DNA from: Candidatus Kuenenbacteria bacterium
Lineage (GTDB): Bacteria; Patescibacteriota; Patescibacteriia; UBA11705; JABHMO01
Reading direction: 5' to 3'
DNA length: 57,310 nucleotides
Assembly: GCA_013202715.1 (NCBI GenBank)
Contig: JABMRF010000046.1
Span: 1 to 57,310, forward strand
The translations under genes and the position numbers were made by a program. Shown in pieces: positions 40,862 to 57,250 of the stretch. The stretch's first letter is position 1; the number at the start of each line of letters is the position of its first letter. The notes below the pieces were generated by a model that searched no databases, was not told where the DNA came from, and saw only the letters and a list, made by a program, of their open reading frames with translations.

Positions 40862-41563
40862 CTATCCATGACAAACCGCCACGCAAACAACTTTCTGAAC
40901 GCCGGCTTGCTTCAAGGTTTGTGCCGCTTCAGCAAAAGTAACACCAGTTGTTAATACATCATCAATCAGGATTACTTTGCCGGGAACCGGCTTCTTAAGG
41001 TTGAACTGGAAAGCCTGTTTCAGGTTTTCGAACCGCTCTTGGCGGTTTAATTTGGCCTGCTGATCTGTATTTTTTACTCGCAAAATCAAACCGTCCTCTA
41101 GTATACAATTATATTTCAAACTGAGCACTTTTGCAAGCTCCTCAGCCTGGTTAAAACCACGCTCAATTAAGCGTTTTTTGTGGAGCGGTATTGGTAACAA
41201 AACATTGTTCCAAAAAACGCCTGCCAATTCCCTGTTTTGAATTTGCTGATTAAGAATTTTCGCCAAGGTATGTTTCAAACTCTCAATGTAATTATATTTA
41301 AAATCCTCTACCATTTGCCCAACGAGATTGTCTGTATATGTAGTTGCGACTATAATCTGGTCAATTCCGGTCTTAGAAGAGCATTCTGGGCAAATGCCGA
41401 TCTCATGATCCCCATTATTGCATACAAAACAAGGAAATTTTTCTATGAAACCAATTTTATTAAAACAAGAGGAGCACAAATACTCCCCCTCTTTTCCGCA
41501 ATCAGCACATTCTTTCGGAAAAATATAGTCAAGTAAATTTTCCCAGTATTTTCTTAATAGCAT
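40862..41563 (-). CDS. comF: ComF family (zinc ribbon + phosphoribosyltransferase-like) protein
   Basis: CxxC motifs, PIPLH..RL.ERGFNQA, LIDDV.TTG.T. Confidence 0.9.
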   Translation of the reverse strand: MLLRKYWENLLDYIFPKECADCGKEGEYLCSSCFNKIGFIEKFPCFVCNNGDHEIGICPECSSKTGIDQIIVATTYTDNLVGQMVEDFKYNYIESLKHTLAKILNQQIQNRELAGVFWNNVLLPIPLHKKRLIERGFNQAEELAKVLSLKYNCILEDGLILRVKNTDQQAKLNRQERFENLKQAFQFNLKKPVPGKVILIDDVLTTGVTFAEAAQTLKQAGVQKVVCVAVCHG

Positions 41564-41577
41564 GTTTTAGGAATTCA

Positions 41578-41650
41578 AGCGAATTAAGTTAATTAAGAGA
41601 TTGAGCGAATTTTTAATTAACTCAATTCACTCAATTCGCTCAATTAACTT
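41578..41650. repeat. Inverted 9-mer array pair
   Basis: GAATTAAGT/ATTGAGCGA units facing AACTCAATT/CGCTCAATT units, upstream of comF. Confidence 0.7.
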
Positions 41651-41674
41651 TCCCTATCAGTTTAATCCGCGTCT

Positions 41675-42250
41675 TCACTGCCAGTATGCCGCATCAACCA
41701 CCCAATTATCCCCCCGTTTAACTAATTCCAGTATTACATCCTGTAAAAACTGGGTACTTTCCTGATCAGCTTTTTTCTCCACTCTTTGAGCGGAAACTTT
41801 TACTTTTGCAGTTGACGGTGTCTGTTCCATGACATAAGCCACAGGCGCTAAAGTTGTAATTTCATAATAATATCCATCCGGATCATGCTCTTTTATTAAC
41901 TGATCAAAATATGTATTTTCAACCCAGGCAGCCATTGAAGACGACATCATTGGAACTAACTCCTTGATACTAATATAATCACTTTGATTTGAATAAGTAC
42001 CAAACCTTTCCACAAAATTTTTCGAAAGAAGTTTCATTGAACCCATTTGTTGTTCCTCTGCTGTCGGAGCCGGTAATTCAAGTTTGCTTTCTTCTTCAGT
42101 TGATATTTCAACTTTTGCAACCGGAGCTGTTTCATCCTCAACTGCATCAGGTTTCCGAGCTTGCTCTCCTTTAATAAAAAATATTAAGATCACCGCAATT
42201 ACAATCAAACCGGTAGCGATAATTATAATTAATTTTGTTCTGTTTGGCAT
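41675..42250 (-). CDS. Hypothetical bitopic protein, possibly VirB8/TcpC-like
   Basis: N-terminal TM, then a domain ending LELVK.GDNW.VD (NTF2-like); directly downstream of VirB4. Homology is inferred from position. Confidence 0.55.
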   Translation of the reverse strand: MPNRTKLIIIIATGLIVIAVILIFFIKGEQARKPDAVEDETAPVAKVEISTEEESKLELPAPTAEEQQMGSMKLLSKNFVERFGTYSNQSDYISIKELVPMMSSSMAAWVENTYFDQLIKEHDPDGYYYEITTLAPVAYVMEQTPSTAKVKVSAQRVEKKADQESTQFLQDVILELVKRGDNWVVDAAYWQ

Positions 42251-42321
42251 ATACTGGTTTATTGGTTGATTAGTTTATTGGTTGATTTGATAATTGATCT
42301 CGCTTACATACTTTCCTTAGC

Positions 42322-44205
42322 TTAGGCCTGATCATCTTCTTCCTGCTTGCGCTTTTTTTCCTGGTCTAAAAGCTCTTGCGGATTTGTAGTCACAAGTTCT
42401 TTTTCTAATCCAGAGGCAACGATTTTGATGGCGGCATGACGATCACCGGCAAAGAAAATTCCTTCACCAATACCTGATTCCAAAAGTAAGAACTTTTCTC
42501 CCTCAGTCAGCTGGAAAGTTTTTTGAATAAGGTCGATAGAGGCGGAAGACTGTTTCAATAATATCTTCAAGGCTGAATTGGTAATAATAGACTGACCGTA
42601 CTGGGACAACAAAAAGTCGTTCACGTCCTGCGTAATGGTCGTTACACCAAGGTAATATTTTCGACATCTTTTAACTAAAGCATAAATAAACTTCGCTGAA
42701 TCCTCATGTTGCATGAGCCACCAGGCCTCATCAATAATCAAAATTCTCTTCTTTACTTCTGAGCGAACTACGTTCCAAATGTAATTAATAATGTTATAAA
42801 TCGCCATCGGCCGGAGTTCATCTTCGAGGTCTCGCACACTGAAACAAACCAACTGATTATTCATATCAACATTTGTCGGAGAATTGAACAAACCGGAAAA
42901 AGTACCTGAAGTGAACTTTTTTAATCGTAGAGCGAGATCAGATCCACCCTCCATACCGTCCAAAACATCATAAAGATCCTGCACAATCGGCGGTTCAACT
43001 TTAGTTAAATCTGCGTCCGGAGTAATATCTTTTTTTGCGTAAGCTTCTTTCAGCGCCTGATCCATTAATGAATCTTCCTGAAAAGTCATCTTACCAATCA
43101 TGATTTTGAGCAGACCTTTTAGAGTGATGATAGCACTTCGGAGAATATCAGCTGCATCCATGTCACCAACTTTACGCGGTAAATCAAAAGGATTAATTTT
43201 ACTTTCTGAATTTAGGGAAATATTAACATAAGTGCCTCCAACTGCATCACATAAATTTTTGTATTCTCTTTCTGGATCGATAATGATTACATCAGTCCCA
43301 AGCATCATACTTCTGAGCACCTCAAGTTTGATCGCGAAACTTTTTCCAGCACCTGAAGTCGCAAAAACACAGGAATTAGCGTTTTGCAAAGAAAATCGAT
43401 CGAATAAAACAAGGCTGTTGTTATGACGGTTAATTCCAAACAAAATTCCTTCATCAGTTGTTAATTCTGAAGAAATAAATGGAAAAGATGCGGCGATTGG
43501 TGACGAATTAAGATTAGTTGTAATCATTAATTCATCATTACAAAGCGGGACGGTAGAGCTAAATCCTTGTTCCGCTTGATAAAAAACCCGCTTCGACATA
43601 ATTGAACGCGTACCGAGTACGGCCTCAATATCTTCAGTTAAAATATCCAAAGCTTTATGAGTTTTTTCGTACAAAGTCAGATACAGACCATATTGAAAAA
43701 ACTTTTCCACGCCCTGAGTCAAATCATCACGTAATTTTTCAATATCTCGAAGGGCAGTTTCACGCAGAGGATCGCGCGGAGCACCTTTTTCAACATCAGT
43801 ATTAAGTTGCGCCTGCAAAACACCTACCTTGTTTTTCAATTGTTTTAATATTACCGGCGATTCCATTGGATAAAAGAACATACTAACATCCAATGTAGCG
43901 TTAAAATTAAGTATCGGCGAAAACCATCCGACGCTAATGTAACGTGGATAAGTCATAACAAATAAAGTTCTCGCATAGAGAGGCCCTACTCTCACACAAT
44001 CAGGTTTAACTTCAAAAGCTTCAGGCGCAATTACATCCAGAACCGAAGTGATTCCACGACGATAAACTTTTTCCTGTTCTAAAATTTCCCTCTGCTTTGC
44101 CGAGGTTTTTTTTATTTTTTTAATCTTTTGGGCTTCTACAATTGGTTTCTCTTTCTGTTTTTCAGAAGTCACCGGGGTTTTATCAACATCGCCAGGTTTA
44201 AACAT
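42322..44205 (-). CDS. virB4: VirB4/TraE-like secretion ATPase
   Basis: Walker A FATSGAGKS, IDPEREY, INPFD, Walker B IIDEAW, RKY.LG...ITQ. Confidence 0.88.
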   Translation of the reverse strand: MFKPGDVDKTPVTSEKQKEKPIVEAQKIKKIKKTSAKQREILEQEKVYRRGITSVLDVIAPEAFEVKPDCVRVGPLYARTLFVMTYPRYISVGWFSPILNFNATLDVSMFFYPMESPVILKQLKNKVGVLQAQLNTDVEKGAPRDPLRETALRDIEKLRDDLTQGVEKFFQYGLYLTLYEKTHKALDILTEDIEAVLGTRSIMSKRVFYQAEQGFSSTVPLCNDELMITTNLNSSPIAASFPFISSELTTDEGILFGINRHNNSLVLFDRFSLQNANSCVFATSGAGKSFAIKLEVLRSMMLGTDVIIIDPEREYKNLCDAVGGTYVNISLNSESKINPFDLPRKVGDMDAADILRSAIITLKGLLKIMIGKMTFQEDSLMDQALKEAYAKKDITPDADLTKVEPPIVQDLYDVLDGMEGGSDLALRLKKFTSGTFSGLFNSPTNVDMNNQLVCFSVRDLEDELRPMAIYNIINYIWNVVRSEVKKRILIIDEAWWLMQHEDSAKFIYALVKRCRKYYLGVTTITQDVNDFLLSQYGQSIITNSALKILLKQSSASIDLIQKTFQLTEGEKFLLLESGIGEGIFFAGDRHAAIKIVASGLEKELVTTNPQELLDQEKKRKQEEDDQA

Positions 44206-44236
44206 ATTTTATAATTAATAAATTAGAAATATAAAA

Positions 44237-44917
44237 TTATCCTTCAATCCGCAACTTTGATAAATCTACCAATTTCTGGTTTTTAGCAATCGCTGGATTA
44301 TAAACATTATAATAAAGTTCAATTAAACTTTGGGTGTCAAGCTTGACTACAGTTATTCCCAATGAAGAAATGTTCATTGTCACATGTTCTACTCGTTGGT
44401 TCAGTTCATGAGAATATTTTTCAAATCTATTTTGTTTCAATTTAACAACCTTGGCTGGTGAAAAAACTGTGCCCACCCGACTAAAAAACCCTCTTTTTTT
44501 ATCTTCAATTGCACTATATGGGACTACGATATAAAAATGCTTAGTCATAATATCCCCGCCTTCAACCAACTCTTTGATATAGACTTTATAATTTACAATC
44601 ACTTTCTTTAATAATTCATTTGTCAATTCCCTCTCTGCTGACTCAATTCTTTTTATATAATTTTCAATGTCAAGTTTTCTGGATTGAATAATAATCTGAA
44701 TCGGAAAATTAAGGTAATTCAAAAACGTTACATATGACGAAACCAATGCCTCCTGCTCTTCTTCGGATTTTAAAGCAAAATTAATACTGGACGCCATCAA
44801 AACCGACCTTAATGTTCCGTCTTTTAGAATTACTATATCATTTTTAATTTCTGCAATATCCAGAAACAACTGGGTTGATTGTGAAATTTTGTTGCCTGCT
44901 AATTTTGCGCTATGCAT
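44237..44917 (-). CDS. VirB4 N-terminal-like partner protein
   Basis: I.EI.NDIVILKDG.LR.VL....INF.LKS.EEQ, between PrgI and VirB4. Start trimmed to 44917. Confidence 0.7.
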   Translation of the reverse strand: MHSAKLAGNKISQSTQLFLDIAEIKNDIVILKDGTLRSVLMASSINFALKSEEEQEALVSSYVTFLNYLNFPIQIIIQSRKLDIENYIKRIESAERELTNELLKKVIVNYKVYIKELVEGGDIMTKHFYIVVPYSAIEDKKRGFFSRVGTVFSPAKVVKLKQNRFEKYSHELNQRVEHVTMNISSLGITVVKLDTQSLIELYYNVYNPAIAKNQKLVDLSKLRIEG

Positions 44918-44984
44918 ATATACATTCTTAATTCTTAATTCTTTATTCTTTATTTTTAATTCTTTATTTTTTAAAAAATCACTC

Positions 44985-45434
44985 TTATTTTTCGTCAATA
45001 TGATCAGATATTTCCTGGCCTTCGTAAACACCTCCAGTATTTACCATCAGAGACAAATCTCGTAATCGAGAACCGGAAACTGGATCTTTTTTCTTGTGTT
45101 CTACCTTCGTTTCTTTGAGCCCACTGGCAACCTCGCGAACCACATTGATATATGCCTCCCGATTCCAGACCCTTAGCTTTGATCTTTTCAGTGTCTGTAC
45201 AAAATTTAATAAAAAGTAATGAATCGGACGTCCATTTACCTTGGCAAAAGCTAAAATTGACAAGATCGTTGTACTAAACACTGCCGCGGCTATAAAATAA
45301 AGAAAGGCAAAAACCTTGTAACAAATAAAAGCAACCAATAATGCAGCGAGCATAATTACAAACTGACGAGTCGTAACCGGTCCGATAATTTTATCTTCTA
45401 CGTCAATAAATTGTGGTACTAGAAATTGATTCAT
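44985..45434 (-). CDS. prgI: PrgI family protein (VirB3-like)
   Basis: VPQFI.VEDKI.GP.T.RQF, two TM helices, K.NGRP. Confidence 0.85.
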   Translation of the reverse strand: MNQFLVPQFIDVEDKIIGPVTTRQFVIMLAALLVAFICYKVFAFLYFIAAAVFSTTILSILAFAKVNGRPIHYFLLNFVQTLKRSKLRVWNREAYINVVREVASGLKETKVEHKKKDPVSGSRLRDLSLMVNTGGVYEGQEISDHIDEK

Positions 45435-45541
45435 AAAACTTCATAGTAATTTGGCTTCGCCGTAATTTAGTAATTAATAATGATTTCTCAATTACCTAAT
45501 TACAATCAATTACTATCAATTACCTAATTACCTAATTACGA

Positions 45542-46780
45542 TCAGTTGTTCAGTTGTTCGTTCAGCTTACTAAACATCTCGTATTCACTCAAACTTAAAC
45601 TATCCTTGTTTTCTCTTTGTCTTTTTTCTATTGTAGCTGTGATTGGTTTTTTTTCTCGAATCGCCTCGAGTGTCATGGCAATATATAATTTAAAAACAGA
45701 TGACTTTTTCCAGGCATTAATGCCCTCAAGTTTTTTTCCCAAAGATTGTCCAGCCAGCACTTGAATTTTTTCCATAATTTCTTCCATAATTTCTTTTTCA
45801 TCTTTTCCTAGAGTCCGCAAATCTTTTAGATTCATAAATTCCAACTCTTCAACCGGGCCAATTAATTTACGGTGATGTTTAATATTTTCCAGGCCAGGCT
45901 TAGCCTTTCCTTCCGGGACAAGGTTCAAAGTTGGCCTAACAACTTTTTGAAAAGGCACTTTTTCCACCTCTCTTTTAATTGGTTTGCTCCTAGCCGCAAC
46001 AGCAGCCAGTTTCGCGGTCGGAGTTTGTTTATTATTAATGACCGCAGGTGGAGGCGGTTCCAATCGGTGTTTAATGTCGATAACTTTTTTAACGGAAGTA
46101 TTTCCACCATCTCTTCTTTCTTTTTCCATCAGTTGAGCCTCTTGTTCCAAAAATGCAACAATTAATTCTGCTTTTTCTGAAGGTAACTCAAGGCCACCAC
46201 TTACTCTGGGAACGGTTAAAATATATTTCACTTCCTTTGGTTTTCTTATCCCACGAAAATATGTAACAAGTATATTAAAAAATCTATCTTTAATTTTCTG
46301 ATCACTAAACTCAATTTTTAATTTATTTATAACGTGATTAACTTTTTCCTCGACCAACTTCTTGTCTTGACCACGCCTCTGGTTCAATTCCGGATCATGA
46401 TCAATTTTTTCCAGTTCAATTTCTTCCCGCGGAACAAAAACTATTGGCTGGCTTGCCTCTGGTCTGGCTGTCGGTTTGAGCTGCTTAACGTGGTTAACTG
46501 GTTTAACTGGTTTATCTGGTTTAACTGGCTCAACTGCTTTAACTGTTTCAACTGGTTTAACTTGATTTCCGCTTTTGGCGGAAACTTTTTCAGCAACAGC
46601 TTTCTTTTTTGATTCAAAAGTAAAAACAGGACTTAATACCTTTTTTTGTGTTTCACCAACTTGTTTTTCAACGTTTTGCTCTTTTTCAATTTCTTTAATA
46701 TCAAAAAACTGGCCGTCTTTGTAATATTTCAACTGGCCGTCTTTGTCTTTGACTAACATGTAACCTTGGGTATTAACCAT
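45542..46780 (-). CDS. Hypothetical protein in the T4SS-like locus with VKP repeats
   Basis: 412-aa ORF; a 9-mer tandem array (about 46487-46563) encodes VKPVETVKAVEPVKPDKPVKPV. Confidence 0.65.
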   Translation of the reverse strand: MVNTQGYMLVKDKDGQLKYYKDGQFFDIKEIEKEQNVEKQVGETQKKVLSPVFTFESKKKAVAEKVSAKSGNQVKPVETVKAVEPVKPDKPVKPVNHVKQLKPTARPEASQPIVFVPREEIELEKIDHDPELNQRRGQDKKLVEEKVNHVINKLKIEFSDQKIKDRFFNILVTYFRGIRKPKEVKYILTVPRVSGGLELPSEKAELIVAFLEQEAQLMEKERRDGGNTSVKKVIDIKHRLEPPPPAVINNKQTPTAKLAAVAARSKPIKREVEKVPFQKVVRPTLNLVPEGKAKPGLENIKHHRKLIGPVEELEFMNLKDLRTLGKDEKEIMEEIMEKIQVLAGQSLGKKLEGINAWKKSSVFKLYIAMTLEAIREKKPITATIEKRQRENKDSLSLSEYEMFSKLNEQLNN

Positions 46781-46821
46781 AATTACTATTAATTACAATC
46801 AATTACTATGAATTACCCTTT

Positions 46822-48318
46822 TTAGCTCCACTTGAATTGACTATCCGATAAATCCAAATATGCCAATTGAGAATACTCCGTAACGCCTTTTTGCTGAAAA
46901 ATATTACTTAATTTTGCTGCCTGACGTGCCCCTTCATTCTCAGACATACCTAATCTTTCTAGAAATACAAACTTCAAAAAATACTGTACATACTTAGTCT
47001 GAAAAGGATTTGACTTGAAATCTTCTTCTTGGCCTTGTAAATTATTTCGCTTCAGATAACCAATTTCAAAAGCCTGATAACGAGGGTCCTTTGCAAATAA
47101 AGTGTCCAGTGCTCCGGTTTCAGAGAGAACTTCCAAACAGGCAATAATTTCATGTTTTTTTCTACGTAATAAATAATCTTCCAAGAGATCTGCCACTTTT
47201 TGATATTCTTTGCGTGTTTCTGTAATAATCTTTTCTTTATTCTGATCAATTTTTTCCCGGTCAGCGGATTTATCTTTAATTAAGTCCATAATATCTACCG
47301 AACCTTCTTCTTTGGCGCCTGATGCTTCTTCTTCCTCCTCCTCCATCTTTCTTAAACTTTCTGCGTACTCAGCGCCTTCTTCAGCGCTAAGCGGGAAAAT
47401 AGATATATCCTCTATGCTCATTTTTTTTGAAGTCTCGTAAAATTTCTTAATGGATTTATAAATTTCCAGTAAATCTGATACAACTTTTTTTTCTTCCGGT
47501 TTCAGGGCCTTAACATTTTCCGCTTCGGTCAAATAACGCGCTTTTTCAATTGAACTCATTATATTTTCAATTCCAATATGACTTATATAATCTTTGATCC
47601 AGTTCGCGGCACTTGGAGCCACTTTTTCATTTTTAAGTTTAATTTTATTTTTTGTAATCAACTCTTCGCTATGCTCCAAAGTTCCCAACAGTTCTTTTTG
47701 ATATTTCTGTGATTCATCATTGATCAATAGCATCACCACTCGAGCGGTAAGGTCAAGTTTCAGTTCATAGCCACCAATTTCTAAAATTTCTTTCAGCTGT
47801 GTAGTGAAAACTATTTTTAGGCCCTTGTATTCTTCTGCCGGATTGCTGATTACCAGTGGCACCTTTTTGTCCACCGTCTTATCTTCTTTTCCTTCAGCTT
47901 CTTCAGCCGCTAACTGCTCCTTTTCTTCTTTGAGCTCGTGTTCATATTTTTTGATAAAATCAGCATATTCGCCAGGATTACCGCCAAGCGCTGTAATTTT
48001 TTTTGCAACTTGTCCTTCAAACCAATCTTCATCCAAAATTAACAATCGCTTTCCGCAAATTTCTAAAGCTAATTTTTTCGCTTGTTCCGACTCAACGTCA
48101 ATAAGCTGGCTAATTGATTTTTCCAAATCAGAAATTTCTGTTTGTTTGCGATAAACTTTTGAAATAAGTTTAGTTAGACTGACTATCTGGCCAATATTCA
48201 ATTTAAAAGACTTACTAATTTCAAAATTAGTTTCACTGCCAAATTCAGATTGCAAAGTATGCAAAACCTTCGGTGGTAAATCATTTTCAGCTTTTTTTGT
48301 TGGTGTTGTTTTATTCAT
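46822..48318 (-). CDS. Hypothetical helical protein in the T4SS-like locus
   Basis: 498-aa E/K-rich ORF, co-directional. No motif recognised. Confidence 0.65.
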   Translation of the reverse strand: MNKTTPTKKAENDLPPKVLHTLQSEFGSETNFEISKSFKLNIGQIVSLTKLISKVYRKQTEISDLEKSISQLIDVESEQAKKLALEICGKRLLILDEDWFEGQVAKKITALGGNPGEYADFIKKYEHELKEEKEQLAAEEAEGKEDKTVDKKVPLVISNPAEEYKGLKIVFTTQLKEILEIGGYELKLDLTARVVMLLINDESQKYQKELLGTLEHSEELITKNKIKLKNEKVAPSAANWIKDYISHIGIENIMSSIEKARYLTEAENVKALKPEEKKVVSDLLEIYKSIKKFYETSKKMSIEDISIFPLSAEEGAEYAESLRKMEEEEEEASGAKEEGSVDIMDLIKDKSADREKIDQNKEKIITETRKEYQKVADLLEDYLLRRKKHEIIACLEVLSETGALDTLFAKDPRYQAFEIGYLKRNNLQGQEEDFKSNPFQTKYVQYFLKFVFLERLGMSENEGARQAAKLSNIFQQKGVTEYSQLAYLDLSDSQFKWS

Positions 48319-48328
48319 GATGGTTTAT

Positions 48329-50947
48329 TTATGGAGCAAATGCTTTCATATCATCGGCAGTTTGTCCTTTTAGAGCATTAATAATCTTATCGTTAGCTGC
48401 CATTCTGCCTAATTTTTCTTTGGCTACATCCTGCTTTTTCTTTTCTACTGCGTAAGTTGGAGTTGCCGGAGCTGGAAGAGACGCCCTTACAGTTGTCATT
48501 AAATGTTGAGTAACTTTATCAATATTATCCTCGCTATGCTCTTCGCCTGCATCTGCCATTTTGGACATCTGGGAAACTGAAGCGTGTTCTGATACAGCCT
48601 GAATAGCCCGGGGACTACTTAGCTCTCGTTTGCCCAAATCTGCTCCTTTTATCTTTGGAATTGCCGTATCCAAACCGGATGAATCTGAGCTCACTCCGTC
48701 AACCGGAGATGATGAGAATACATCCCTTTCAACAACTCTTCCTCTTGAATCACGAGCGCCAAATCCTTCTTCAAAAGAGTCTGTAATATTTCCGGCTATA
48801 GCGCGAAATTCACTAGCATCCTTCTGTGTTTTAGCCAATGAAGCTGTAGCAAGAGTAACTTTTTGAGCAGCTTGAGTTCTTTCATTTGTTGATGCAGTTG
48901 TCGGCAAAGCTCTGACCGCTCTTTGCGCACTCAGAACCCCGGCTCGGCCTTTAGCAAGATATTCTTCGTGATCTAACATTTTACCGCCTGCAAACTTTTT
49001 ATTTCCTGTTTTGACTGCCTCTTTGTATTCAAGCCCTCTGTTGCTGGCTCTCTCCATTGTAGCTTGGTATTGTTTCGGTCCAGTTACCTCATAAGCTTGT
49101 TCTAAGAAATCCTCATTTTTGTATGCTTCAGGTTCTTGAGCCGCAAGATCAAATTCACCTCGATCAGCAGCCCCACGAAAAGCCTTGGCTTCTTTTTTAT
49201 CAGTCAAATCATAAGCAGCATATGCTTGTCTTTTTTGCATAGTTTCTTTATGAGCCTTGAGTCCTTCTTTATCTCCTTTAAACAATTCACGATGCTGCCT
49301 TGCTTGATCAGCAACGGTAGAAACCACATTACCATTAGCATCTTTAACATCCTTGTAACCTTTTTTTGCAGCTACCATTGCTGCGGCCTTTCGCATATGC
49401 TTGCTATATCTTTTACTACCGGCAACTTTTTGCGCTTCTTCCGGTGTAGTGACGTCCATACCCTCCAAAACTTTGGCGGCTTCCTTTTGTTTATTATCTA
49501 AACGAGCTTGTTTCATTTGTTTTTTTGCAGCAAGATCAGCTCTACCAGCAGTTCCATGTTTCATTTGGTATGCGCCACCTTCTCGTGCACCAGAAACCAT
49601 AGCACTTCCTGCTGCTTTAATTCCTTTACCATCTTTCACAGCTTTTCCTGCTGCTGCAAGTCCGCCAGCAGCGCCACCAATAACCACTGCGGGAGCTTTT
49701 TTAATTGCAGCCTTTGCGGAATGCCTGGCCTCACGAAAACGCTCATTTTGCCAACCTTTTTTAATCCCGCCAGGAAGAGCCTTGACACCAGAGCGCGCAG
49801 CGCTATAACCCGTTCCATGAGAAATAGCTTTCTTGGCAAATGATGATGCTTGGCCGGATTTCTTTGACGCGGCAGATCCCATCGCTCCGCCCAATTCACC
49901 GGCTATTGATAAACTGGCCATAAGCATCGCGAGAGCAATCGCAAACTGCGCTAAGTTATCCACATAGGAGATATTAGAAACTACACCACCTTCTGATTTA
50001 TTTTCAATTTCTGTATGTTTATCAGGATACATTCCGGCAGGATCGGACATGATTAATAAACTCAGCCACAGGAAAAAAGCCATTACCGGACCAATCACTA
50101 CTGCCGAGGTAAATTCTCCCCACCATTTATCTTTCATTTTCTTCCCCATACCATCAGGGAATACATTCATCGCAAAAGCCACTGGAGACAGGACAACCAA
50201 AATCCAGAGAGTTACGATTCTCATTACAAATAATCCCAGTACCATAACCGTCACAAAAATAGCAATAACAAGTAACATTGCCGCTAAAAACAGGGCGATA
50301 AAAATACTAGTATGGTCAACAGGATTCTGTATATCTGATGATTTCTCGTTCAACTGCATTAATTTATTAATGCCAAGTCCCTGAATCAAATTTGCACCAG
50401 CAGTTGCCTGGTAGCCATTTACAAAGGTCATCATCACAACCTGCGCGAAATCAATCATTAGGCCACAAATCAATTTACTAAAATTTACCAAAACTGCCGC
50501 AATAATCAATTTGGGCAGCATTTTCTTTACAGGATATTTTTCTACATTTAAAATTTGAGCAAAAGCTATTACCAGAAGCATGACCACAAAAAGCATGTTA
50601 CAAACATCACGAACCAGGACCCAGCCCTTTGTTACGGCTTTTGAGACTACAAAATCATTGTAGGAACTAATAATCACAATCAAAGCAAAAATCTTCATCA
50701 AAACCCAGCCTAAACCAGCTACAATAAAAAACAATAATCGATTCAAAAATTGTACAATTGTTGTGGTCATGTCAGGATCACTTGCGAAGGCAAAATTACC
50801 AACAACAAAAATTCCGACTAGTAAGGTACCTAATAAAACTACTTGGAATTTTCTATTTTTTATGGAAAACAAAACCTTAGCATGCTTAATAACTTTTCTC
50901 AGCATACTCGTAAAAATAAGCCCAATTTGCTTCAATTGACTTTTCAT
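48329..50947 (-). CDS. TrbL/VirB6-like polytopic membrane protein with long charged C-terminal tail
   Basis: GW.LVRD.CNM.F, P.LII.A.LVNFS, RI..LW.L..LSP.AF, multiple TM helices, then an Ala/Lys-rich tail. Confidence 0.75.
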   Translation of the reverse strand: MKSQLKQIGLIFTSMLRKVIKHAKVLFSIKNRKFQVVLLGTLLVGIFVVGNFAFASDPDMTTTIVQFLNRLLFFIVAGLGWVLMKIFALIVIISSYNDFVVSKAVTKGWVLVRDVCNMLFVVMLLVIAFAQILNVEKYPVKKMLPKLIIAAVLVNFSKLICGLMIDFAQVVMMTFVNGYQATAGANLIQGLGINKLMQLNEKSSDIQNPVDHTSIFIALFLAAMLLVIAIFVTVMVLGLFVMRIVTLWILVVLSPVAFAMNVFPDGMGKKMKDKWWGEFTSAVVIGPVMAFFLWLSLLIMSDPAGMYPDKHTEIENKSEGGVVSNISYVDNLAQFAIALAMLMASLSIAGELGGAMGSAASKKSGQASSFAKKAISHGTGYSAARSGVKALPGGIKKGWQNERFREARHSAKAAIKKAPAVVIGGAAGGLAAAGKAVKDGKGIKAAGSAMVSGAREGGAYQMKHGTAGRADLAAKKQMKQARLDNKQKEAAKVLEGMDVTTPEEAQKVAGSKRYSKHMRKAAAMVAAKKGYKDVKDANGNVVSTVADQARQHRELFKGDKEGLKAHKETMQKRQAYAAYDLTDKKEAKAFRGAADRGEFDLAAQEPEAYKNEDFLEQAYEVTGPKQYQATMERASNRGLEYKEAVKTGNKKFAGGKMLDHEEYLAKGRAGVLSAQRAVRALPTTASTNERTQAAQKVTLATASLAKTQKDASEFRAIAGNITDSFEEGFGARDSRGRVVERDVFSSSPVDGVSSDSSGLDTAIPKIKGADLGKRELSSPRAIQAVSEHASVSQMSKMADAGEEHSEDNIDKVTQHLMTTVRASLPAPATPTYAVEKKKQDVAKEKLGRMAANDKIINALKGQTADDMKAFAP

Positions 50948-51077
50948 TTAGTCTGTTTTAATTCAAATTTATTATACCATATTAATTTGGTTAAGGGTAA
51001 ATTTTATGCACAGCTGGGCTTCTAGTCTAGAGTCTAGAGTCAAAAGTCAAGAGTCATAACTCCAAAAGAGGTGCGAC

Positions 51078-51110
51078 AAAAAAAGAAGGGTTATATCCCC
51101 TTCTTTTTTT
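51078..51110. terminator. Hairpin terminator overlapping the four-helix gene stop
   Basis: A7GAAGGG-ttatat-CCCCTTCT7. Confidence 0.6.
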
Positions 51111-51483
51111 GATTCTTTTTCTGTAATGTTTTAACACTAGCTCCAAGCAACCTTGATATTTCTATCACTTCGCATAAAAGAGCTTTTAATTTTTGTTGAT
51201 CCCCTTTATTCATATCACGAAGCAAAACTAGCCAAAATTGAGTTTCATTTGCAGATTTCAAGCAGTGCCTTAAATAATTCGCAAAATCCCTATCTGAACC
51301 GCCTGCAATTGCCTCAATATAATTTGCTCCAATACTTGTTCCACTTCTTATGAATTGTTTTTTGATAACCTGACAAACTACATCTTTCCAGTCATAATTT
51401 TCGCTAAATTTTAATAACTCTAAAATAAAATTGTATATTCTTTGCTTAAACTCTTTACTAAAATCCTTGTTACACTTTCTCAT
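51091..51483 (-). CDS. Four-helix-bundle protein (TIGR02436 / 23S rRNA-IVP-like), copy A
   Basis: QFIRSGTSIGANYIEA..G.S.RDF......LKSANET.FWL.LL motif. Confidence 0.9.
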   Translation of the reverse strand: MRKCNKDFSKEFKQRIYNFILELLKFSENYDWKDVVCQVIKKQFIRSGTSIGANYIEAIAGGSDRDFANYLRHCLKSANETQFWLVLLRDMNKGDQQKLKALLCEVIEISRLLGASVKTLQKKNQKKKGI

Positions 51484-51501
51484 ATTGTTATATCATTATT
51501 T

Positions 51502-51900
51502 CTATTCAATGAGTTTCAACTCTAGACTTTTGACTCTAGACTCTTGACTTAACCGTATATAACCATTGATAAACTTGTTAATCCTTTATGCTTTTGACAA
51601 TATTTCAAGCTGTCAATAATAATTTTAAAATATTTTGGTTTTGTAAAAATATCAATCCACTCGATGATTGTCAATGTTAAAAAGTGAGTTACATTTTCGT
51701 TTTCTTTATGGATTCTGAGTACTGGCATATAATCTTCCCGTTTTTAAGTATCCTCATTGTGGACTCCATAGCTATTCCCCGCCTTACGGACGATGAATAG
51801 ACTATGGAGCCCCCTTTAATTAAACTATTCAATGAGTTTCAACTCTAGACTTTTGACTCTTGACTTTTGACTTAACCGTGGATAGCCATTGATAAACTTG
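51502..51900. repeat. 76-bp direct repeat pair (51502-51577 and 51825-51900)
   Basis: Manual alignment gives 71/76 identity. It duplicates the 3' end of the lamin-tail gene. Confidence 0.9.
51761..51817. repeat. REP-like palindrome (copy C)
   Basis: GGACTCCATAG-CTATTC...GAATAG-ACTATGGAGCCCCCTTT. Confidence 0.75.
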
Positions 51901-54063
51901 GCTTTTCTTCTGCCACAATAAGTACAGATTACACAGCATCAAAACCACGAATCCGCTAAGCAACAACCAAAGCGTGTTTTTCTTTTGTGAATTAGTACCA
52001 ACCTTACTATCACTGTTTTGAGCCGAGCCAACAACCGGTTTTGCTTGCAAGGTCAAGTTAACCATATCAGCCTCGCTTCTTGGCATAAGCCGATATTCAT
52101 CATCGTATTGACCAACGATCCCGGTGATTATGATTTGATTGCCAACATCAAAAAGCTTTGAACTGATCTTTGTGCCACGCTTTAAATAAACGACAAACTC
52201 ACCAAATTCATCCGCAAAAATTAGTCTACTTGAATCCTTTTCAACCAGTTCTCCTTGAACCTGAACAAAAACGCCTTCTTTTTCCTCATTAAGCCCAAGC
52301 GAATTAATTGTGGGCGGCGTTGCCACCTCTTGATTTTCCAGAATCGTTAAATCAGCTTTTTCTTTAATTAAGATTCTTTTTTCATTCCGACTTTCAGATA
52401 ATGTTCCATTAACCTCCACCAAGTCGCCAACTTTCAATTCAGGCCAGTCAGCTTTTGAAAAATAGATCTGGATTCCATTTAGATAAATAAGGCTCTTGCT
52501 AAATACTTCCGGTAAAACAACCACCTGCCCTTTAACTTTAACCTTTGACCTTAACGGTAAACTTCGAACTTCTGCTAAGCTATCCACCTCCATTGTGTCA
52601 CCCTGAGAGAGGAGGGACGACGAACCGAAGGGTGTTGTTTTTTTACTGCTCACTACCAAACCCGCCGTCTGCATAGCCGGCTTTTTATTTTCCGCACCAG
52701 GTGTTGACTCCAATGTTTCCAGCCAACCGCCCTCAAACCAGGAATTGGAATAATCTTCTTTTGGGTTTTGATAATCAACTGAACTTATAATCTGACCATT
52801 TGGATCAAGAAGATTGATCTGGTCCGATGAATTGTTTAGGACCAATCCAGTTTCTTCTTTATTAAAAACCAAATAATCATTTACTTTAATTACAATCTGA
52901 TCTTCCAACTTGAACGGTTTACTTCCGCCTTCTGCGTCATCCAGGCTCCAGCCCAACAAGTTAACGTCAGTTTCTCCGGAATTATACAACTCAATCCATT
53001 CAGCATTATCACTTCCCAGCGGATCAGCCAAAAATTCATTGATAATAATTTTATCTGAAAATTGATATACTGGTTGGACTTCTTCCACTTCTTCCACTTG
53101 CTTGTCCTCGGTAGTTTCAACGAAGGAGGATTCAACCTCTTCCACTTTTTCAACCTGCGTGTCCTCCGCAGTTTCAACGAAGGAGGGTTCAACTTCCTCA
53201 ACCTGCTTTGCCTTGAGCTTGCCTCTCGGCCATGAGCTCGAGGCCGAATGGTCGAAAGGCTCCTCGGTTAATTGAAAAAAATTAATCTGACTTGGGGTTG
53301 CAACTTCTGTTTCTTTGTATTCATCGTCAAATAAACCAATTGAATTGCCTGATTCACCGGCCGGAACATTTGAGTCTTCCCATTCGCCGTAACTAACTTT
53401 ATCAATTTGGCTTCCATAAGAATCCTGCAAAATTACACAATCGCCACCATTATTCAAACTACTTTTGTCAAAAACAAGATAACCAAGAGGTCCGATGGAA
53501 CCGGTTAATTGTGTTTTTTTGCCGGCGCCTTCGATCAAATTCCAGCCGGACAAATCAATCGCCTCTGCAGTCGTATTATACAGTTCCACCCATTCCGGAT
53601 CGCCAGAAATCGGAGCGGCCATTATTTCATTAATTCGAATTTGCTTTGGGCCAATGATCGGTTGAAAAGTATCCAACTGATCTTCAACTACATTCGCTTG
53701 CTCAGTTGAACTGTTTTCTTCAATTAAATTATCTTCTTCAAGTGGTTCACTTTCCTCAGTTGAATTATTTTCTTCAACCACCTCCGTTTCCTCAGCTAGA
53801 TTATTTTCTTCTATGGAATCATCTTCACTCGCTTCCGGATCCTCAATCAACTCCGGAGTTTCAACTGGCTGTTCATCAACATTTTCCAATAAATTTTTTA
53901 ACCACGATTGACATGAATCATCTGCGCAGCCAATAACAATGTACTGGTAAACCTGACTGTCAGAAATTGTATTGTAAACCATCGCCGCCTTTGCCTGGCG
54001 AAAAACCACATCAAAAGGAATGGTCAACAGACTGATCAATAATATTCCAAGTAAATATTTCAT
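51829..54063 (-). CDS. Surface protein with two lamin-tail domains, OB folds and C-terminal TM
   Basis: Signal peptide; INEIM..P....EWVELYN and INEFL.DP...EWIELYN; OB-like V.V.G.V...; TM helix near the C-terminus. Confidence 0.8.
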   Translation of the reverse strand: MKYLLGILLISLLTIPFDVVFRQAKAAMVYNTISDSQVYQYIVIGCADDSCQSWLKNLLENVDEQPVETPELIEDPEASEDDSIEENNLAEETEVVEENNSTEESEPLEEDNLIEENSSTEQANVVEDQLDTFQPIIGPKQIRINEIMAAPISGDPEWVELYNTTAEAIDLSGWNLIEGAGKKTQLTGSIGPLGYLVFDKSSLNNGGDCVILQDSYGSQIDKVSYGEWEDSNVPAGESGNSIGLFDDEYKETEVATPSQINFFQLTEEPFDHSASSSWPRGKLKAKQVEEVEPSFVETAEDTQVEKVEEVESSFVETTEDKQVEEVEEVQPVYQFSDKIIINEFLADPLGSDNAEWIELYNSGETDVNLLGWSLDDAEGGSKPFKLEDQIVIKVNDYLVFNKEETGLVLNNSSDQINLLDPNGQIISSVDYQNPKEDYSNSWFEGGWLETLESTPGAENKKPAMQTAGLVVSSKKTTPFGSSSLLSQGDTMEVDSLAEVRSLPLRSKVKVKGQVVVLPEVFSKSLIYLNGIQIYFSKADWPELKVGDLVEVNGTLSESRNEKRILIKEKADLTILENQEVATPPTINSLGLNEEKEGVFVQVQGELVEKDSSRLIFADEFGEFVVYLKRGTKISSKLFDVGNQIIITGIVGQYDDEYRLMPRSEADMVNLTLQAKPVVGSAQNSDSKVGTNSQKKNTLWLLLSGFVVLMLCNLYLLWQKKSQVYQWLSTVKSKVKSQKSRVETH

Positions 54064-54164
54064 AATTTTTTTTTGTTGGGGCCAATGGGTCGTTTGCGTT
54101 TAACAAATAATCCATCAGCCCCATATTAATTAGTTAGATAACTCTGCTCTCGCGATGAGCAGAG

Positions 54165-54196
54165 AAAACCCGTGCGTCGCCAAGGCTATGCACGGG
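54165..54196 (-). terminator. Hairpin/terminator (REP-like loop) downstream of the RAYT homolog
   Basis: CCCGTGC...GCACGGG followed by TTTT on the minus strand; a second hairpin CTCTGCTC/GAGCAGAG at 54142-54164. Confidence 0.6.
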
Positions 54197-54205
54197 TAAA
54201 CTAAA

Positions 54206-54919
54206 CTAGGCTATTTGTAATGTTTGTTTAGCCGGAACACTTGCATCTAAACGTAACTTTAAAGTGTCAATATCCTGAAGATCTTCAGATAAATAAAGAT
54301 ATGGATATTTTTCAACTGTTTCAACCAATTTCCAACGTTCAGAAAGCGGTGTACCCATAATCCGATCTGATTTTTCCTGTATTGCTTTATCATCATTAAT
54401 TGGCAAGGTGTATGTTTTTGGAGTCCAAACTTTATAGCGTTTGTTTTCTTCAAAATTTTTAGCCTGCGCTTCAAATGTCCACAATATTTTCTGCGGAGTT
54501 GAACGCATAACTCGTTCATTTCCTTTGAACAATTCAAATATTTCATAAGCGCCGTCTTTAATTTCAGCACGCAAATTTTTCATAATTTCAATTGCCACCT
54601 GACCCTTTACTTCAGCCAGGATTTTCCCAGGATTATCCTGATTTTCAGGAAGCTTAAACAGCCAGAGAAAAAAGTTTGGCATTACCACATAAGCTAAGTT
54701 CTTAATGTCCATTTTTAATTCAGCCAATTTAATCGCATTAGCCACCAAGTCCATGTATTCTTTGGTTACAAAAACATTTTTGCGGCCGATAATTTCACCA
54801 TAGTGAAAGTAAGTACCGCCGGCCTGTTTAAAAGGCTTGTCAAACTTCTTTTTTCCTTTTGTTTTTTCCTCTTTTTGACCACCGTCATTGCCAGTGGTCT
54901 GGTTTTTTTCTTTTGTCAT
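54206..54919 (-). CDS. RAYT/IS200-type Y1 transposase homolog with degenerate active site
   Basis: GGTYF, AYVVMPN, VW...Y...I.D...I..K....P....LV....YPY match the RAYT layout. The HUH positions read F/L and the catalytic Tyr position reads R. Confidence 0.72.
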   Translation of the reverse strand: MTKEKNQTTGNDGGQKEEKTKGKKKFDKPFKQAGGTYFHYGEIIGRKNVFVTKEYMDLVANAIKLAELKMDIKNLAYVVMPNFFLWLFKLPENQDNPGKILAEVKGQVAIEIMKNLRAEIKDGAYEIFELFKGNERVMRSTPQKILWTFEAQAKNFEENKRYKVWTPKTYTLPINDDKAIQEKSDRIMGTPLSERWKLVETVEKYPYLYLSEDLQDIDTLKLRLDASVPAKQTLQIA

Positions 54920-54988
54920 AGATTTTTTGTTAATAATTAGATATAGCCCTAGTTAGTTTATAGTTAATATGTAAAAGGTAAAAGTAGC

Positions 54989-55360
54989 TTATTTCTTCTT
55001 CTCTCGTAATGACTTTACAATTGATCCAAAGATCCGCGCAATCTCTTCAACCTCCAGCAACAAAGCATCCAATTCCTCCAAATCTCCTAATTCAGCCTCT
55101 TTTAAAAGCAATAGCCAAAATTGAGATTCATTTGCAGATTTCAAAGAATGATTGTTAAAATTCGCAAAATCCTTCCTTGAAGAGCCAGCGATTGCTTCAA
55201 AATAATTCGCGCCTATACTTGTTATGCTTTTCACCAGCTGAAACCGAACAACCCGCGCTAGTGGATTTTTCCAATCCAAACATTCACAAAATTTTACAAC
55301 TCTTAAAATCAGACAAAAAAGCCTTGCTTTAAACTTTTTACTAAATTCATTATTGTTCAT
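54989..55360 (-). CDS. Four-helix-bundle protein (TIGR02436 / 23S rRNA-IVP-like), copy B
   Basis: QLVKSITSIGANYFEA...SSRKDF......LKSANESQFWL.LL motif. Confidence 0.9.
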   Translation of the reverse strand: MNNNEFSKKFKARLFCLILRVVKFCECLDWKNPLARVVRFQLVKSITSIGANYFEAIAGSSRKDFANFNNHSLKSANESQFWLLLLKEAELGDLEELDALLLEVEEIARIFGSIVKSLREKKK

Positions 55361-55648
55361 AATATTACATTACCTTTTGTTTTTTTACTTTTAACTTTTA
55401 CATTTTAACTTTTACCTATTTCTATTATCTCAACCAGAACAATCCCCCTCAACCAAATCCTGACGACCCACCTCGTCAAGATTTCACCCAAATTTATCAA
55501 GGTAATTTTTTTAAACAAAAAAAGTTGACGACCTAGGTCGACAACTTTTATATGACTGTGGATAACTCCTATTAACGCAAAATCGCAAAATATGCAAAGA
55601 CGCAAAAAACTCTTAAAAATTTTCTACTACTATTTCCTTCACTTCAAG

Positions 55649-57250
55649 CTATTCAAGAGCCTCTCCCTTAGTATAGTCCGTGTAGAAAGCTTCAGGCAAC
55701 GACTTTACAAGACTGCCCCAATCATCGCCAAAAAGTTCTTTTGCCTTAGATTCACTTTTCAACCAACGGATAACGTGATTATCTTCAACTTTATAAACCT
55801 TGGCAATAGTTGGAGTTTTCATTAATGTTCCGGTTTTGAACGGGACATTATCACCAAATGTATAATCCTCTAATGAGTTTACGGTTTCAACAAAGGAAAA
55901 ATCATTTCCAAAATAACTTTCCCAAACTGCTTGTGTCGGATAAGGATGAAGAAGATTGTTTGTATCTATAAAATAAACCGCAGTTTTATCAGCCAACTTC
56001 AGCCAAGTTCCATTTGTATAATCAACGGTTGCGGCGGGTGAGGTAACTGCTACAAAATGAACTGTGAATTGCGCACCAACGTTCTGTGAATCTGAAGTAA
56101 CTTGATATACAACGTCCTGAGCCGTTGAACTTGAAATTTCAAAAGTCTGCTCACCATTGTCACCGCTTCCTTTTGAACTTACAACCACAAGCCCTTCGTC
56201 TCTGACTTCATTTAAATAAACAATCTGACTTGGTAAAACATTATTCTGTGTATCAAAAGTTTTTACTGTTACCGTGATCTTACTCGAACCGTCAGCATTA
56301 ACGGTTAGATTATCAACTGACACAGATGAATTTGTCGCTGAAAATTCTCCGGATATCGCCACGGTAATTGTAATCGGTCCAGAATTTGAAACCTGACCAA
56401 CCCAATCCCGAGACTGAGTTTCAATAAAATATGTTCCATTCTCAATACCTGTCCAATCATACTGCCAAGTCGCATAATTTTGAGTCAAAATTTCTACATC
56501 CTCCCAGTCAACTGTTTCTCCTTCTTTATATATTTTTATTTTAATGTATTCAGCTGATGACTTTCCCTGATCTCTTGACTTGCCGGTTATTGTGTATGAA
56601 TTTGTGCCAATAGTTTGGCCATCTTCTAAATTATCGAATATCACAACCGGCCCGGCCTTGTCTCCACTATAATAACTAATTGTTTGATTGGCAGCATTGG
56701 TAAATTCAAGATCAGTCGGACCGTCACTCTCTGATGCCACGAAAACTCCGGCATCGCCAATATCAAAAGCGCCATCCAAATCATTATCAATAAGTCTTGG
56801 CACCTGCAATTGAACCGTATAATTCACATTTGTTGCGGGCGCTGTCTCCCACATTTCTGCGCTGACAAACAGACGCAAGCCGTCAACAGGAATCAGCTGA
56901 CTTAGATCGTCCCAATACCAACTATTAGTGGGGCTGTAATAAGTACCGGCGCCAAGGTCTGTGTCAACTTGCCAGCCCTGAAAACCGACTTCACCGGCAT
57001 CGGCCCATAGACGCATAGCTTGAATGCCATGAGTATAAATCGCATTGCCTTGATTTTTTACAGTTACGGCAGTCAAGGTGTCTTCGACTCCGTCATTATC
57101 AGGAACAACAAAATCCAAAGCTAATTTGTCCCACTGACCGATATACCATGTATCAATCGGAATTTGAGTAAAAGCAAAATCAGAATTTTGGGATGCTACT
57201 GCAGGAAGAGCGAAGAATAAGATTAAGAGGAAGATTAGTGTTTTTTTCAT
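55649..57250 (-). CDS. Secreted protein with Ig-like domains and a duplicated C-terminal surface domain
   Basis: Signal peptide; Ig-like segments (YTITG.S.D; ADG.S.IT.TV...D..N); two C-terminal G..LK......VY.I repeats. Confidence 0.75.
   Translation of the reverse strand: MKKTLIFLLILFFALPAVASQNSDFAFTQIPIDTWYIGQWDKLALDFVVPDNDGVEDTLTAVTVKNQGNAIYTHGIQAMRLWADAGEVGFQGWQVDTDLGAGTYYSPTNSWYWDDLSQLIPVDGLRLFVSAEMWETAPATNVNYTVQLQVPRLIDNDLDGAFDIGDAGVFVASESDGPTDLEFTNAANQTISYYSGDKAGPVVIFDNLEDGQTIGTNSYTITGKSRDQGKSSAEYIKIKIYKEGETVDWEDVEILTQNYATWQYDWTGIENGTYFIETQSRDWVGQVSNSGPITITVAISGEFSATNSSVSVDNLTVNADGSSKITVTVKTFDTQNNVLPSQIVYLNEVRDEGLVVVSSKGSGDNGEQTFEISSSTAQDVVYQVTSDSQNVGAQFTVHFVAVTSPAATVDYTNGTWLKLADKTAVYFIDTNNLLHPYPTQAVWESYFGNDFSFVETVNSLEDYTFGDNVPFKTGTLMKTPTIAKVYKVEDNHVIRWLKSESKAKELFGDDWGSLVKSLPEAFYTDYTKGEALE

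What the first reader, a model, noticed from the sequence alone, without database searches (positions are those of the whole stretch)
54142..54919. Catalytically dead RAYT/Y1 transposase homolog kept as an intact ORF
The protein follows the RAYT layout, but MPNHxH reads MPNFFL and the catalytic-Tyr helix (typically Y-I-H-x-N-P) reads R-I-M-G-T-P. All three catalytic residues are changed while a 237-aa frame, a Lys-rich N-terminal extension and a terminator are retained. It sits immediately downstream of four-helix cassette B and next to a hairpin whose core (CATAGCCTTGGCGACGC on the minus strand) resembles the REP-like family elsewhere in the window. Inference: a domesticated hairpin-binding protein or regulator, analogous to other exapted transposases.
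Basis: partly seen in the sequence, partly recalled or inferred. Interest (0 to 1): 0.7.

Follow-up and report, generated by a model that had tools for sequence, protein, structure and literature searches.

The report
Dead RAYT transposase kept in secretion cluster
This gene encodes a relative of hairpin-cutting "REP" transposases that has lost every DNA-cutting residue, yet ultra-small Patescibacteria have kept it under strong selection at one fixed place in a type IV secretion / DNA-uptake gene cluster, so it has probably been re-used as a non-cutting nucleic-acid-binding protein.

Summary
ORF 54206-54919 (-), 237 aa, has the Y1/HUH fold of RAYT (TnpA-REP). Its best structural match is PDB 4er8. 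All four catalytic or metal-binding positions are replaced: H-u-H reads F-F-L, Tyr is Arg, and the Asn of Y---NP is Thr.

It is not a decaying copy. It belongs to a small family: 37 clusters, found in 18 GTDB species of Falkowbacteria-like Patescibacteria. On the tree this family is one clade (support 100/99) nested among HUH-intact RAYTs. Nonsynonymous divergence is low while synonymous sites are saturated, and the one measurable pair gives dN/dS 0.06.

The gene always lies between a Big_1 surface-protein gene and a lamin-tail/OB surface-protein gene. These head a T4SS-like cluster (VirB6-like, PrgI, VirB4) that continues into comF. Intact relatives lie in scattered sites with their own REP hairpins.

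It is not a member of the window's REP-like family (GGCTCCAYAG), which instead goes with a truncated canonical RAYT fragment at 51549-51728.

Best reading: an exapted, non-catalytic binder of single-stranded or hairpin nucleic acid that serves this relaxase-less T4SS/competence locus. Loss of catalysis, selection and synteny are shown here. Binding and the link to T4SS function are inferred.

The parts
54206..54919 (-). CDS of the catalytically dead RAYT-like protein (237 aa, P0001)
54821..54919 (-). Basic, disordered N-terminal tail (aa 1-33). It is specific to the dead clade and absent from HUH-intact relatives.
   Evidence: pLDDT below 50; K+R exceed D+E in most family members; intact relatives start at about aa 25-30
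54662..54682 (-). MPNFFLW, the former HUH strand. His1 is Phe and His2 is Leu.
   Evidence: family: His1 F23/Y8/H5; His2 Y32/L2/F1/M1
54347..54367 (-). DRIMGTP, the former D-Y-I-x-x-N-P catalytic helix. Tyr is Arg and the metal-ligand Asn is Thr.
   Evidence: family: Tyr column V/L/M/T/I/A/K/R/Q/S; Asn column A in 32 of 36
54209..54298 (-). Acidic C-terminal tail (aa 208-237) after the invariant YPY motif; low confidence in the model
54169..54196 (-). It is unique in the window and weakened in a strain variant.
54142..54164 (-). Hairpin 2 (CTCTGCTC...GAGCAGAG)
54078..54122 (-). Hairpin 3 (GGGGCTGATGG...CCATTGGCCCC), ending 14 nt before the LTD gene's ATG. Its position, but not its sequence, is conserved in most orthologous loci.
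51829..54063 (-). Downstream partner in every locus with enough downstream sequence: a secreted, C-terminally anchored protein with two lamin-tail domains and an OB-like region
55649..57250 (-). Upstream partner in most loci: a secreted Big_1/invasin-like protein
54989..55360 (-). Four-helix-bundle cassette B (TIGR02436/PF05635), a variable insertion in the Big_1-to-RAYT-like spacer
40862..50947 (-). Rest of the cluster: 10-TM VirB6-position protein (48329-50947), two soluble proteins (46822-48318 and 45542-46780), PrgI (44985-45434), VirB4-type ATPase (42322-44205), ComF-type protein (40862-41563)

Best explanation
The gene encodes an exapted RAYT (REP-associated Y1/HUH transposase) that can no longer cut or join DNA. 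Shown here: it keeps the RAYT fold but has lost both HUH histidines, the nucleophilic Tyr and the Asn metal ligand. This loss happened once, at the base of a small clade of Falkowbacteria-like (class ABY1-type) Patescibacteria. Since then the gene has been inherited vertically under strong purifying selection. It sits at one fixed place, between a Big_1 surface-protein gene and a lamin-tail/OB surface-protein gene, at the head of a T4SS-like cluster (VirB6-like, PrgI, VirB4) that runs on to comF. The clade also gained a basic disordered N-terminal tail and an acidic C-terminal tail. Inferred: the protein still uses the HUH-fold surface and the basic tail to bind single-stranded or hairpin nucleic acid without cleaving it. 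It would work as a cytoplasmic nucleic-acid-handling accessory of this relaxase-less T4SS/competence apparatus, for example by holding, protecting or handing over ssDNA. It is not a mobile-element enzyme.
For: Fold: AF2 pLDDT 81.6 overall and above 90 for residues 30-215. Foldseek top hit is 4er8_A, E=1.1e-7, TM 0.66, followed by IS200/IS605 TnpA chains. NF047646 gives E=2.6e-15. Loss of catalytic residues: the alignment to TnpA-REP and the family columns. The roles of H, H, Y and N119 come from PMC6006769 and PMC3479197. Single origin: the 27 rows without HUH form one clade with 100/99 support, sister to the HUH-intact P0047 and P0051. Selection: 31 invariant columns at 46% mean identity. dN/dS is 0.061 for L022 against L023. 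In the other pairs pS is at or above 0.75 while pN is 0.09-0.25. Synteny: the order Big_1, RAYT-like, LTD, orf872, orf498 holds in all 18 GTDB species and further metagenome contigs. Intact relatives lie in unrelated contexts and carry their own REPs. Cluster identity: PrgI, a VirB4/TraG P-loop ATPase, a 10-TM protein and ComF. Published work says Patescibacteria T4SS clusters mostly lack a relaxase, and that ABY1 loci carry comF, recG and radA (PMC12102498). A sister cluster without the RAYT-like gene carries an SSB gene next to the LTD gene. Positions aligned with TnpA-REP hairpin contacts stay basic: the K81 position is K in 36 of 36, K82 is K/R in 27 of 36, and R97 is K/R in 35 of 36.
Against: No binding or activity was measured. 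The alignment to TnpA-REP has only about 16% identity, so the mapping of contact residues is approximate. The R78 position is not basic, and this protein has Gly at the K82 position. No conserved hairpin sequence or GTAG-like foot was found beside the gene. The adjacent hairpins differ in sequence between species and could be ordinary intercistronic stem-loops or terminators. Gene neighbourhood does not prove a shared function. The immediate neighbours are secreted surface proteins, whereas this protein has no signal peptide. The SSB parallel rests on one sister cluster (L031 and the shorter L032, which carry the same protein). Copy number in the whole genome could not be checked because the genome search was shut. 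No RNA data exist for this organism.
Confidence: 0.55

Rival explanations
1. Local regulator. The protein binds the positionally conserved GC-rich stem-loop between its own stop codon and the LTD gene's ribosome-binding site, as DNA or RNA. It would tune read-through, stability or translation of the LTD/T4SS transcript. The stem-loop would be the relic of the ancestral RAYT's flanking REP.
For: A strong hairpin lies within 200 nt after the stop codon in 13 of 19 loci with a 40-nt window, and in more with 60 nt. The background is 0.61 such hairpins per kb. In about 14 loci it ends 8-15 nt before the LTD start codon, often after a TAATTAAT-like AT-rich stretch. RAYT genes are normally flanked by their REPs (PMC3479197).
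Against: The hairpin sequences are unrelated between species while the protein surface is highly conserved. No conserved guide tetranucleotide was found. Hairpins 1 and 2 vary between strains, with pair-breaking changes. GC-rich hairpins after genes are common in this window: 22 were found. L022 and L023 have no strong one.
Confidence: 0.15
2. Protein-protein adaptor or structural subunit. The HUH fold is re-used only as a scaffold that binds T4SS or surface-protein partners, with no role for nucleic acid.
For: Synteny with secretion and surface genes is fixed. There is an acidic C-terminal tail and clade-specific invariant patches (ELKxDIKN, RVxRS) away from the old active site.
Against: The basic disordered N-terminal tail and the retained basic residues on the helix that contacts DNA in TnpA-REP are more typical of nucleic-acid binders. 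The cluster is linked to comF, and in the sister cluster to SSB.
Confidence: 0.15
3. Still an enzyme with a rebuilt active site. For example, it might use the Tyr that replaces the second HUH histidine in most members, or the invariant E67/D71/K73/N74 patch.
For: Tyr occupies the His2 position in 32 of 36 members. Several invariant polar residues are new to the clade.
Against: This window's protein has Leu at that position, and other members have Phe or Met, so that Tyr is not essential. All three metal ligands (H, H, N) are gone, and no His is invariant in the family. The old Tyr column is free to vary.
Confidence: 0.1
4. An inactivated transposase relic that is simply decaying.
For: Catalytic residues are lost, and the protein scores below the family cut-offs.
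Against: The frame is intact in every ortholog. There are 31 invariant columns, dN/dS is 0.06, pN is far below a saturated pS, and the gene has a fixed position in 18 species.
Confidence: 0.02

Closest known systems
E. coli TnpA-REP / RAYT (YafM; PDB 4er8; NCBIfam NF047646; class 2 TnpA-Y1 of Quentin et al. 2018)
   Same: Same fold, and it is the best structural and sequence match. Shared features are the GGxYF first strand, the MPN...W strand, the W-x-P motif, the conserved Lys on the helix after the HUH strand, and the aromatic-Pro-aromatic motif after the Tyr helix. The gene appears only once per locus examined (whole-genome copy number not checked) and is inherited vertically, as many RAYTs are.
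   Different: It lacks the HUH histidines, the Tyr and the Asn of Y---NP, and scores below the family cut-off. No REP/REPIN family is associated with it. It has an extra basic N-terminal tail and an acidic C-terminal tail, and a fixed place in a secretion cluster.
HUH-intact Patescibacteria RAYTs (P0047, P0051, P0048, and the L018 gene at 8616-9167)
   Same: These are the closest relatives on the tree. They share the roughly 50-aa helical insertion between the HUH strand and the Tyr helix.
   Different: They keep H-u-H and Y-I-H-x-N-P and pass the NF047646 cut-off (84-90 bits). They sit in scattered contexts, and P0048 and the L018 gene are followed by their own repeated hairpins.
Conjugative relaxases (HUH endonucleases of T4SS)
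   Same: They have an HUH-type fold and are encoded with a T4SS. The Patescibacteria T4SS is reported to lack a recognisable relaxase (PMC12102498).
   Different: Relaxases need the HUH metal site and catalytic Tyr, and this protein has neither. It descends from Y1 transposases, not from MOB families.
SSB encoded inside the sister T4SS-like cluster (L031, PF00436)
   Same: A small cytoplasmic protein encoded beside the LTD gene in the orthologous cluster. It could play an analogous ssDNA-handling part.
   Different: The fold is unrelated (OB). The analogy is inferred from position only, and from one sister cluster.

Membership tests
RAYT / TnpA-REP (NF047646; class 2 TnpA-Y1) | Y1 HUH (RRM-like) fold | tested here: met
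   AF2 model; Foldseek top hit 4er8_A, E=1.1e-7, TM 0.66
RAYT / TnpA-REP (NF047646; class 2 TnpA-Y1) | HUH motif (two metal-binding His) | tested here: not met
   It reads F-F-L here. The second His is absent in 36 of 36 family members.
RAYT / TnpA-REP (NF047646; class 2 TnpA-Y1) | Catalytic Tyr in the Y---NP helix, with Asn as metal ligand | tested here: not met
   It reads R-I-M-G-T-P. In the family the Tyr column is variable and the Asn column is Ala in 32 of 36.
RAYT / TnpA-REP (NF047646; class 2 TnpA-Y1) | Score at or above the curated HMM cut-off | tested here: not met
   56.6 bits against a cut-off of 80. Intact relatives score 83.6-89.7.
RAYT / TnpA-REP (NF047646; class 2 TnpA-Y1) | Association with a repeated REP/REPIN hairpin family bearing a conserved foot | tested here: not met
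   The adjacent hairpins are unique in the 57-kb window. The window's REP-like family has no copy here. The whole genome could not be searched.
IS200/IS605 TnpA (Pfam PF01797 Y1_Tnp) | Pfam Y1_Tnp match, obligate-dimer transposase within an IS that has subterminal hairpins | tested here: not met
   No Pfam hit even at E below 1. There are no IS ends, and the gene has a fixed syntenic position.
T4SS relaxase (MOB families) | HUH or other nuclease active site with a nucleophilic Tyr, plus an oriT | tested here: not met
   Catalytic residues are absent. An oriT cannot be tested with these tools.
Domesticated (exapted) transposase, as a general category | Descent from a transposase, loss of mobility, vertical inheritance, purifying selection | tested here: met
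   Tree; synteny in 18 species; dN/dS 0.06 and pN far below pS

The most novel reading that the evidence does not exclude
The dead RAYT is the nucleic-acid-recognition component of the relaxase-less Patescibacteria T4SS/competence apparatus. In this reading an HUH protein has given up cleavage and now binds and pilots, or protects, single-stranded (hairpin-forming) DNA as it enters or leaves the cell through the VirB4/VirB6-like channel. It would work with the extracellular LTD/OB DNA-binding protein and ComF, and would fill the role that an SSB gene holds in the sister cluster.
Probability: 0.2. Interest if true: 0.85.

Novelty: new variant of a known kind. Interest (0 to 1): 0.6.

Why it matters
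RAYTs are the standard example of vertically inherited, "domesticated" Y1 transposases, but every class described so far keeps the HUH and Tyr motifs (PMC6006769). Here a whole clade has dropped all catalytic residues and remains under strong constraint. That would be a clear bacterial case of an HUH nuclease fold re-used for a non-catalytic job. It is fixed in the T4SS-like cluster of ultra-small Patescibacteria. The function of that system is open: it is thought to matter for the epibiotic lifestyle, no relaxase has been found, and its loci sit near comF and radA. The protein is small, soluble and easy to express, so it gives a concrete handle for asking whether that machine handles DNA.

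Tried and rejected
- Pfam gave only a sub-threshold hit (DUF3408, E=0.024) in the low-complexity Lys/Glu tail. I treated it as spurious.
- PHROGs gave only families of unknown function.
- Rfam found nothing credible in 50900-55700.
The flagged hairpin is not a family member.
- Four-helix-bundle link: the cassette is absent from that spacer in most orthologous loci, and L002 has a GIY-YIG gene there instead.
- "Empty site" search through distant LTD homologs: only L031/L032 is a true sister cluster. P0078, P0081, P0083 and P0085 lie in unrelated contexts.
- Strain-level variants from four freshwater metagenome runs: 2 synonymous and 3 nonsynonymous changes, too few to use.
- Whole-genome copy number and REP census: the tools were shut.
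- No RNA runs exist for this organism.

Full report
**What is there.** The minus strand carries an intact 237-aa ORF at 54206-54919. It starts 69 nt after the stop codon of a four-helix-bundle gene (54989-55360; TIGR02436/PF05635). A 142-nt spacer with three stem-loops follows it: hp1 at 54169-54196, hp2 at 54142-54164, hp3 at 54078-54122. After the spacer comes a 744-aa gene for a secreted protein with two lamin-tail domains (51829-54063).

**Is it a RAYT relative?** Yes.
- Pfam Y1_Tnp does not hit. NCBIfam REP_Tyr_transpos matches end to end at E=2.6e-15, but at 56.6 bits it is below the 80-bit cut-off.
- The only PDB sequence match is E. coli TnpA-REP, 4er8.
- An AlphaFold2 model built on 36 family members is confident: pLDDT is above 90 for residues 30-215. 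The first 25 and last 18 residues are disordered.
- Foldseek's best PDB hit is 4er8_A (E=1.1e-7, TM 0.66 on the target). About 29 chains of ISDra2, IS608, IS200 and Sulfolobus TnpA follow it.

**Are the catalytic residues gone?** Yes.
- The HMM alignment places MPNFFLW on LPEHMHC, and DRIMGTP on DYIYINP.
- In TnpA-REP the two His of HUH and N119 bind the metal, and Y115 is the nucleophile (PMC6006769; PMC3479197).
- All four are replaced here: F83, L85, R186 and T190.
- Across 36 family members His1 is F/Y/H, His2 is never His (Y32, L2, F1, M1), the Tyr column varies freely, and the Asn column is Ala in 32.
- The Tyr that often sits at the His2 position is not essential. This protein has Leu there.

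**Is it decaying?** No.
- The big protein collection holds 37 clusters at 45-60% identity, all unnamed or labelled Patescibacteria.
- Among 1.8 billion representatives only 34 reach E below 1e-3.
- The family alignment has 31 invariant columns at 46% mean identity.
- Codon comparisons give dN/dS 0.061 for the one unsaturated pair. In the other pairs pS is at or above 0.75 while pN is 0.09-0.25.
- On a maximum-likelihood tree the 27 sequences without HUH form one clade (100/99). It sits on a long stem, sister to two HUH-intact proteins (P0047, P0051), and is nested among intact RAYTs.
- A few members keep traces of the old motif: FIHDAP in L016, and a Tyr at the old position in L017, L022 and L023.
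- Intact relatives pass the NCBIfam cut-off at 83.6-89.7 bits.

**Where does it sit?**
- Eighteen GTDB species carry the gene. The records are titled Falkowbacteria, Parcubacteria or Patescibacteria; some TPA records are titled Gammaproteobacteria.
- In all of them, and in further metagenome contigs, the order is Big_1 protein, RAYT-like, LTD protein, orf872 homolog, orf498 homolog, all on one strand.
- In the window the run continues with a 10-TM protein in the VirB6 position, two soluble Lys/Glu-rich proteins, PrgI, a VirB4/TraG-P-loop ATPase and a ComF-type protein (DZR_2 plus PRTase).
- A 2025 survey reports that Patescibacteria T4SS clusters mostly lack a relaxase. [quoted passage not shown] It also reports that ABY1-class loci carry comF, recG and radA (PMC12102498).
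- The HUH-intact relatives lie in unrelated places: after radA, in polysaccharide loci, and beside ksgA. P0048 and a canonical RAYT in L018 are followed by their own repeated hairpins.
- One sister cluster (L031/L032) has the same gene order without the RAYT-like gene. It carries an SSB gene directly after the LTD gene.

**The hairpins.**
Its 17-mer core and its stem occur only once in the window.
- The window's REP-like family has arms GGCTCCAYAG and five hairpins: 14186-14233, 14311-14340, 16183-16230, 16262-16291 and 51762-51811. None is near this gene.
- That family's copy C lies next to a 59-codon ORF, 51549-51728 (-). This ORF is the N-terminal third of a canonical RAYT (NF047646 positions 6-54, E=1e-4). 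The REPs therefore go with another, truncated RAYT.
- Across orthologs a GC-rich stem-loop of unrelated sequence lies between the RAYT-like stop codon and the LTD start codon. It usually ends 8-15 nt before the ATG. In the window this corresponds to hp3.
- This is a conserved position, not a conserved sequence. Such hairpins are common after genes here: 22 were found in 57 kb.
- Strain variants in one metagenome run change hp1 and hp2, partly breaking pairs.

**How it most likely works.**
- Shown: the fold is kept, the chemistry is lost, selection is strong, and the gene is fixed in a T4SS/competence locus.
- Inferred: it binds single-stranded or hairpin nucleic acid without cutting.
- In favour: a clade-specific basic disordered N-terminal tail, and basic residues at the positions aligned with the TnpA-REP hairpin contacts. 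The K81 position is K in 36 of 36, K82 is K/R in 27 of 36, and R97 is K/R in 35 of 36. The DNA-related neighbours also fit: an LTD/OB protein of the kind fused to extracellular nucleases, ComF, and the SSB in the sister cluster.
- Against: nothing was measured, the residue mapping rests on about 16% identity, and neighbourhood is not function.
- Rivals are a local regulator acting on the intercistronic stem-loop, a pure protein adaptor, and a rebuilt enzyme. Decay is excluded.

**Novelty.** Full-text searches found no paper describing catalytically dead RAYTs or this family. Quentin et al. state that all their TnpA-Y1 classes keep the HuH and Y motifs. Two earlier notes of this scan on orthologs in other genomes reached the same reading. 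They are not independent evidence, but I reproduced their main claims on this locus.

**Limits.** The whole-genome tools were shut, so copy number and a genome-wide REP census are missing. Only DNA metagenome runs hold this sequence.

Noticed in passing
window 2-334 (-): The N-terminal 111 aa of a second RAYT gene, cut by the window edge (Pfam Y1_Tnp 30.5 bits). Its HUH reads H-L-N. Full-length relatives (about 188 aa) fall into an H-x-N subclade and an H-x-H subclade, and all keep the Y---N helix, so this is probably a working variant rather than a dead copy.
   Followed up: partly
window 51549-51728 (-), with hairpin 51762-51811: A 59-codon ORF that is the N-terminal third of a canonical RAYT (NF047646 positions 6-54, E=1e-4). 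It is truncated where the 76-bp duplicate of the LTD gene's 3' end begins. It lies directly beside copy C of the GGCTCCAYAG REP-like family, so that REP family goes with this remnant and not with the dead RAYT.
   Followed up: partly
window 54953-54992: The roughly 33-40 nt arm flanking four-helix cassette B occurs on many different contigs in the same metagenome runs. Summed depth is up to 72, against 14.7 for the flanks. The cassette arms are therefore a dispersed repeat.
   Followed up: no
window 51024-51062 / 51511-51549 and 51502-51577 / 51825-51900: Four-helix cassette A (51091-51483) is enclosed by 39-nt inverted arrays of short repeats. A 76-nt, 93%-identical direct duplication of the LTD gene's 3' end brackets the spacer that holds the REP hairpin and the RAYT fragment.
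   Followed up: partly
L031 10354-10815: In a sister T4SS-like cluster that lacks the RAYT-like gene, an SSB gene (PF00436) sits between the LTD gene and the VirB6-position gene.
   Followed up: partly
L018 8616-9303: One species carries both the dead RAYT-like gene (upstream of the LTD gene) and an intact RAYT (HIH, YIHNNP) inserted just after the LTD gene. The intact gene is followed by two identical 31-nt REP copies. Its close relative L015 has no such insertion.
   Followed up: partly
L024 1-2204: The HUH-intact relative P0048 lies directly after radA and is followed by three similar small hairpins (GCGGGGTGCAACCCCGC type).
   Followed up: no
window 54142-54164: In one metagenome run, hairpin 2 carries six clustered substitutions that rewrite the inner stem and loop while the outer 6 bp stay the same.
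   Followed up: no
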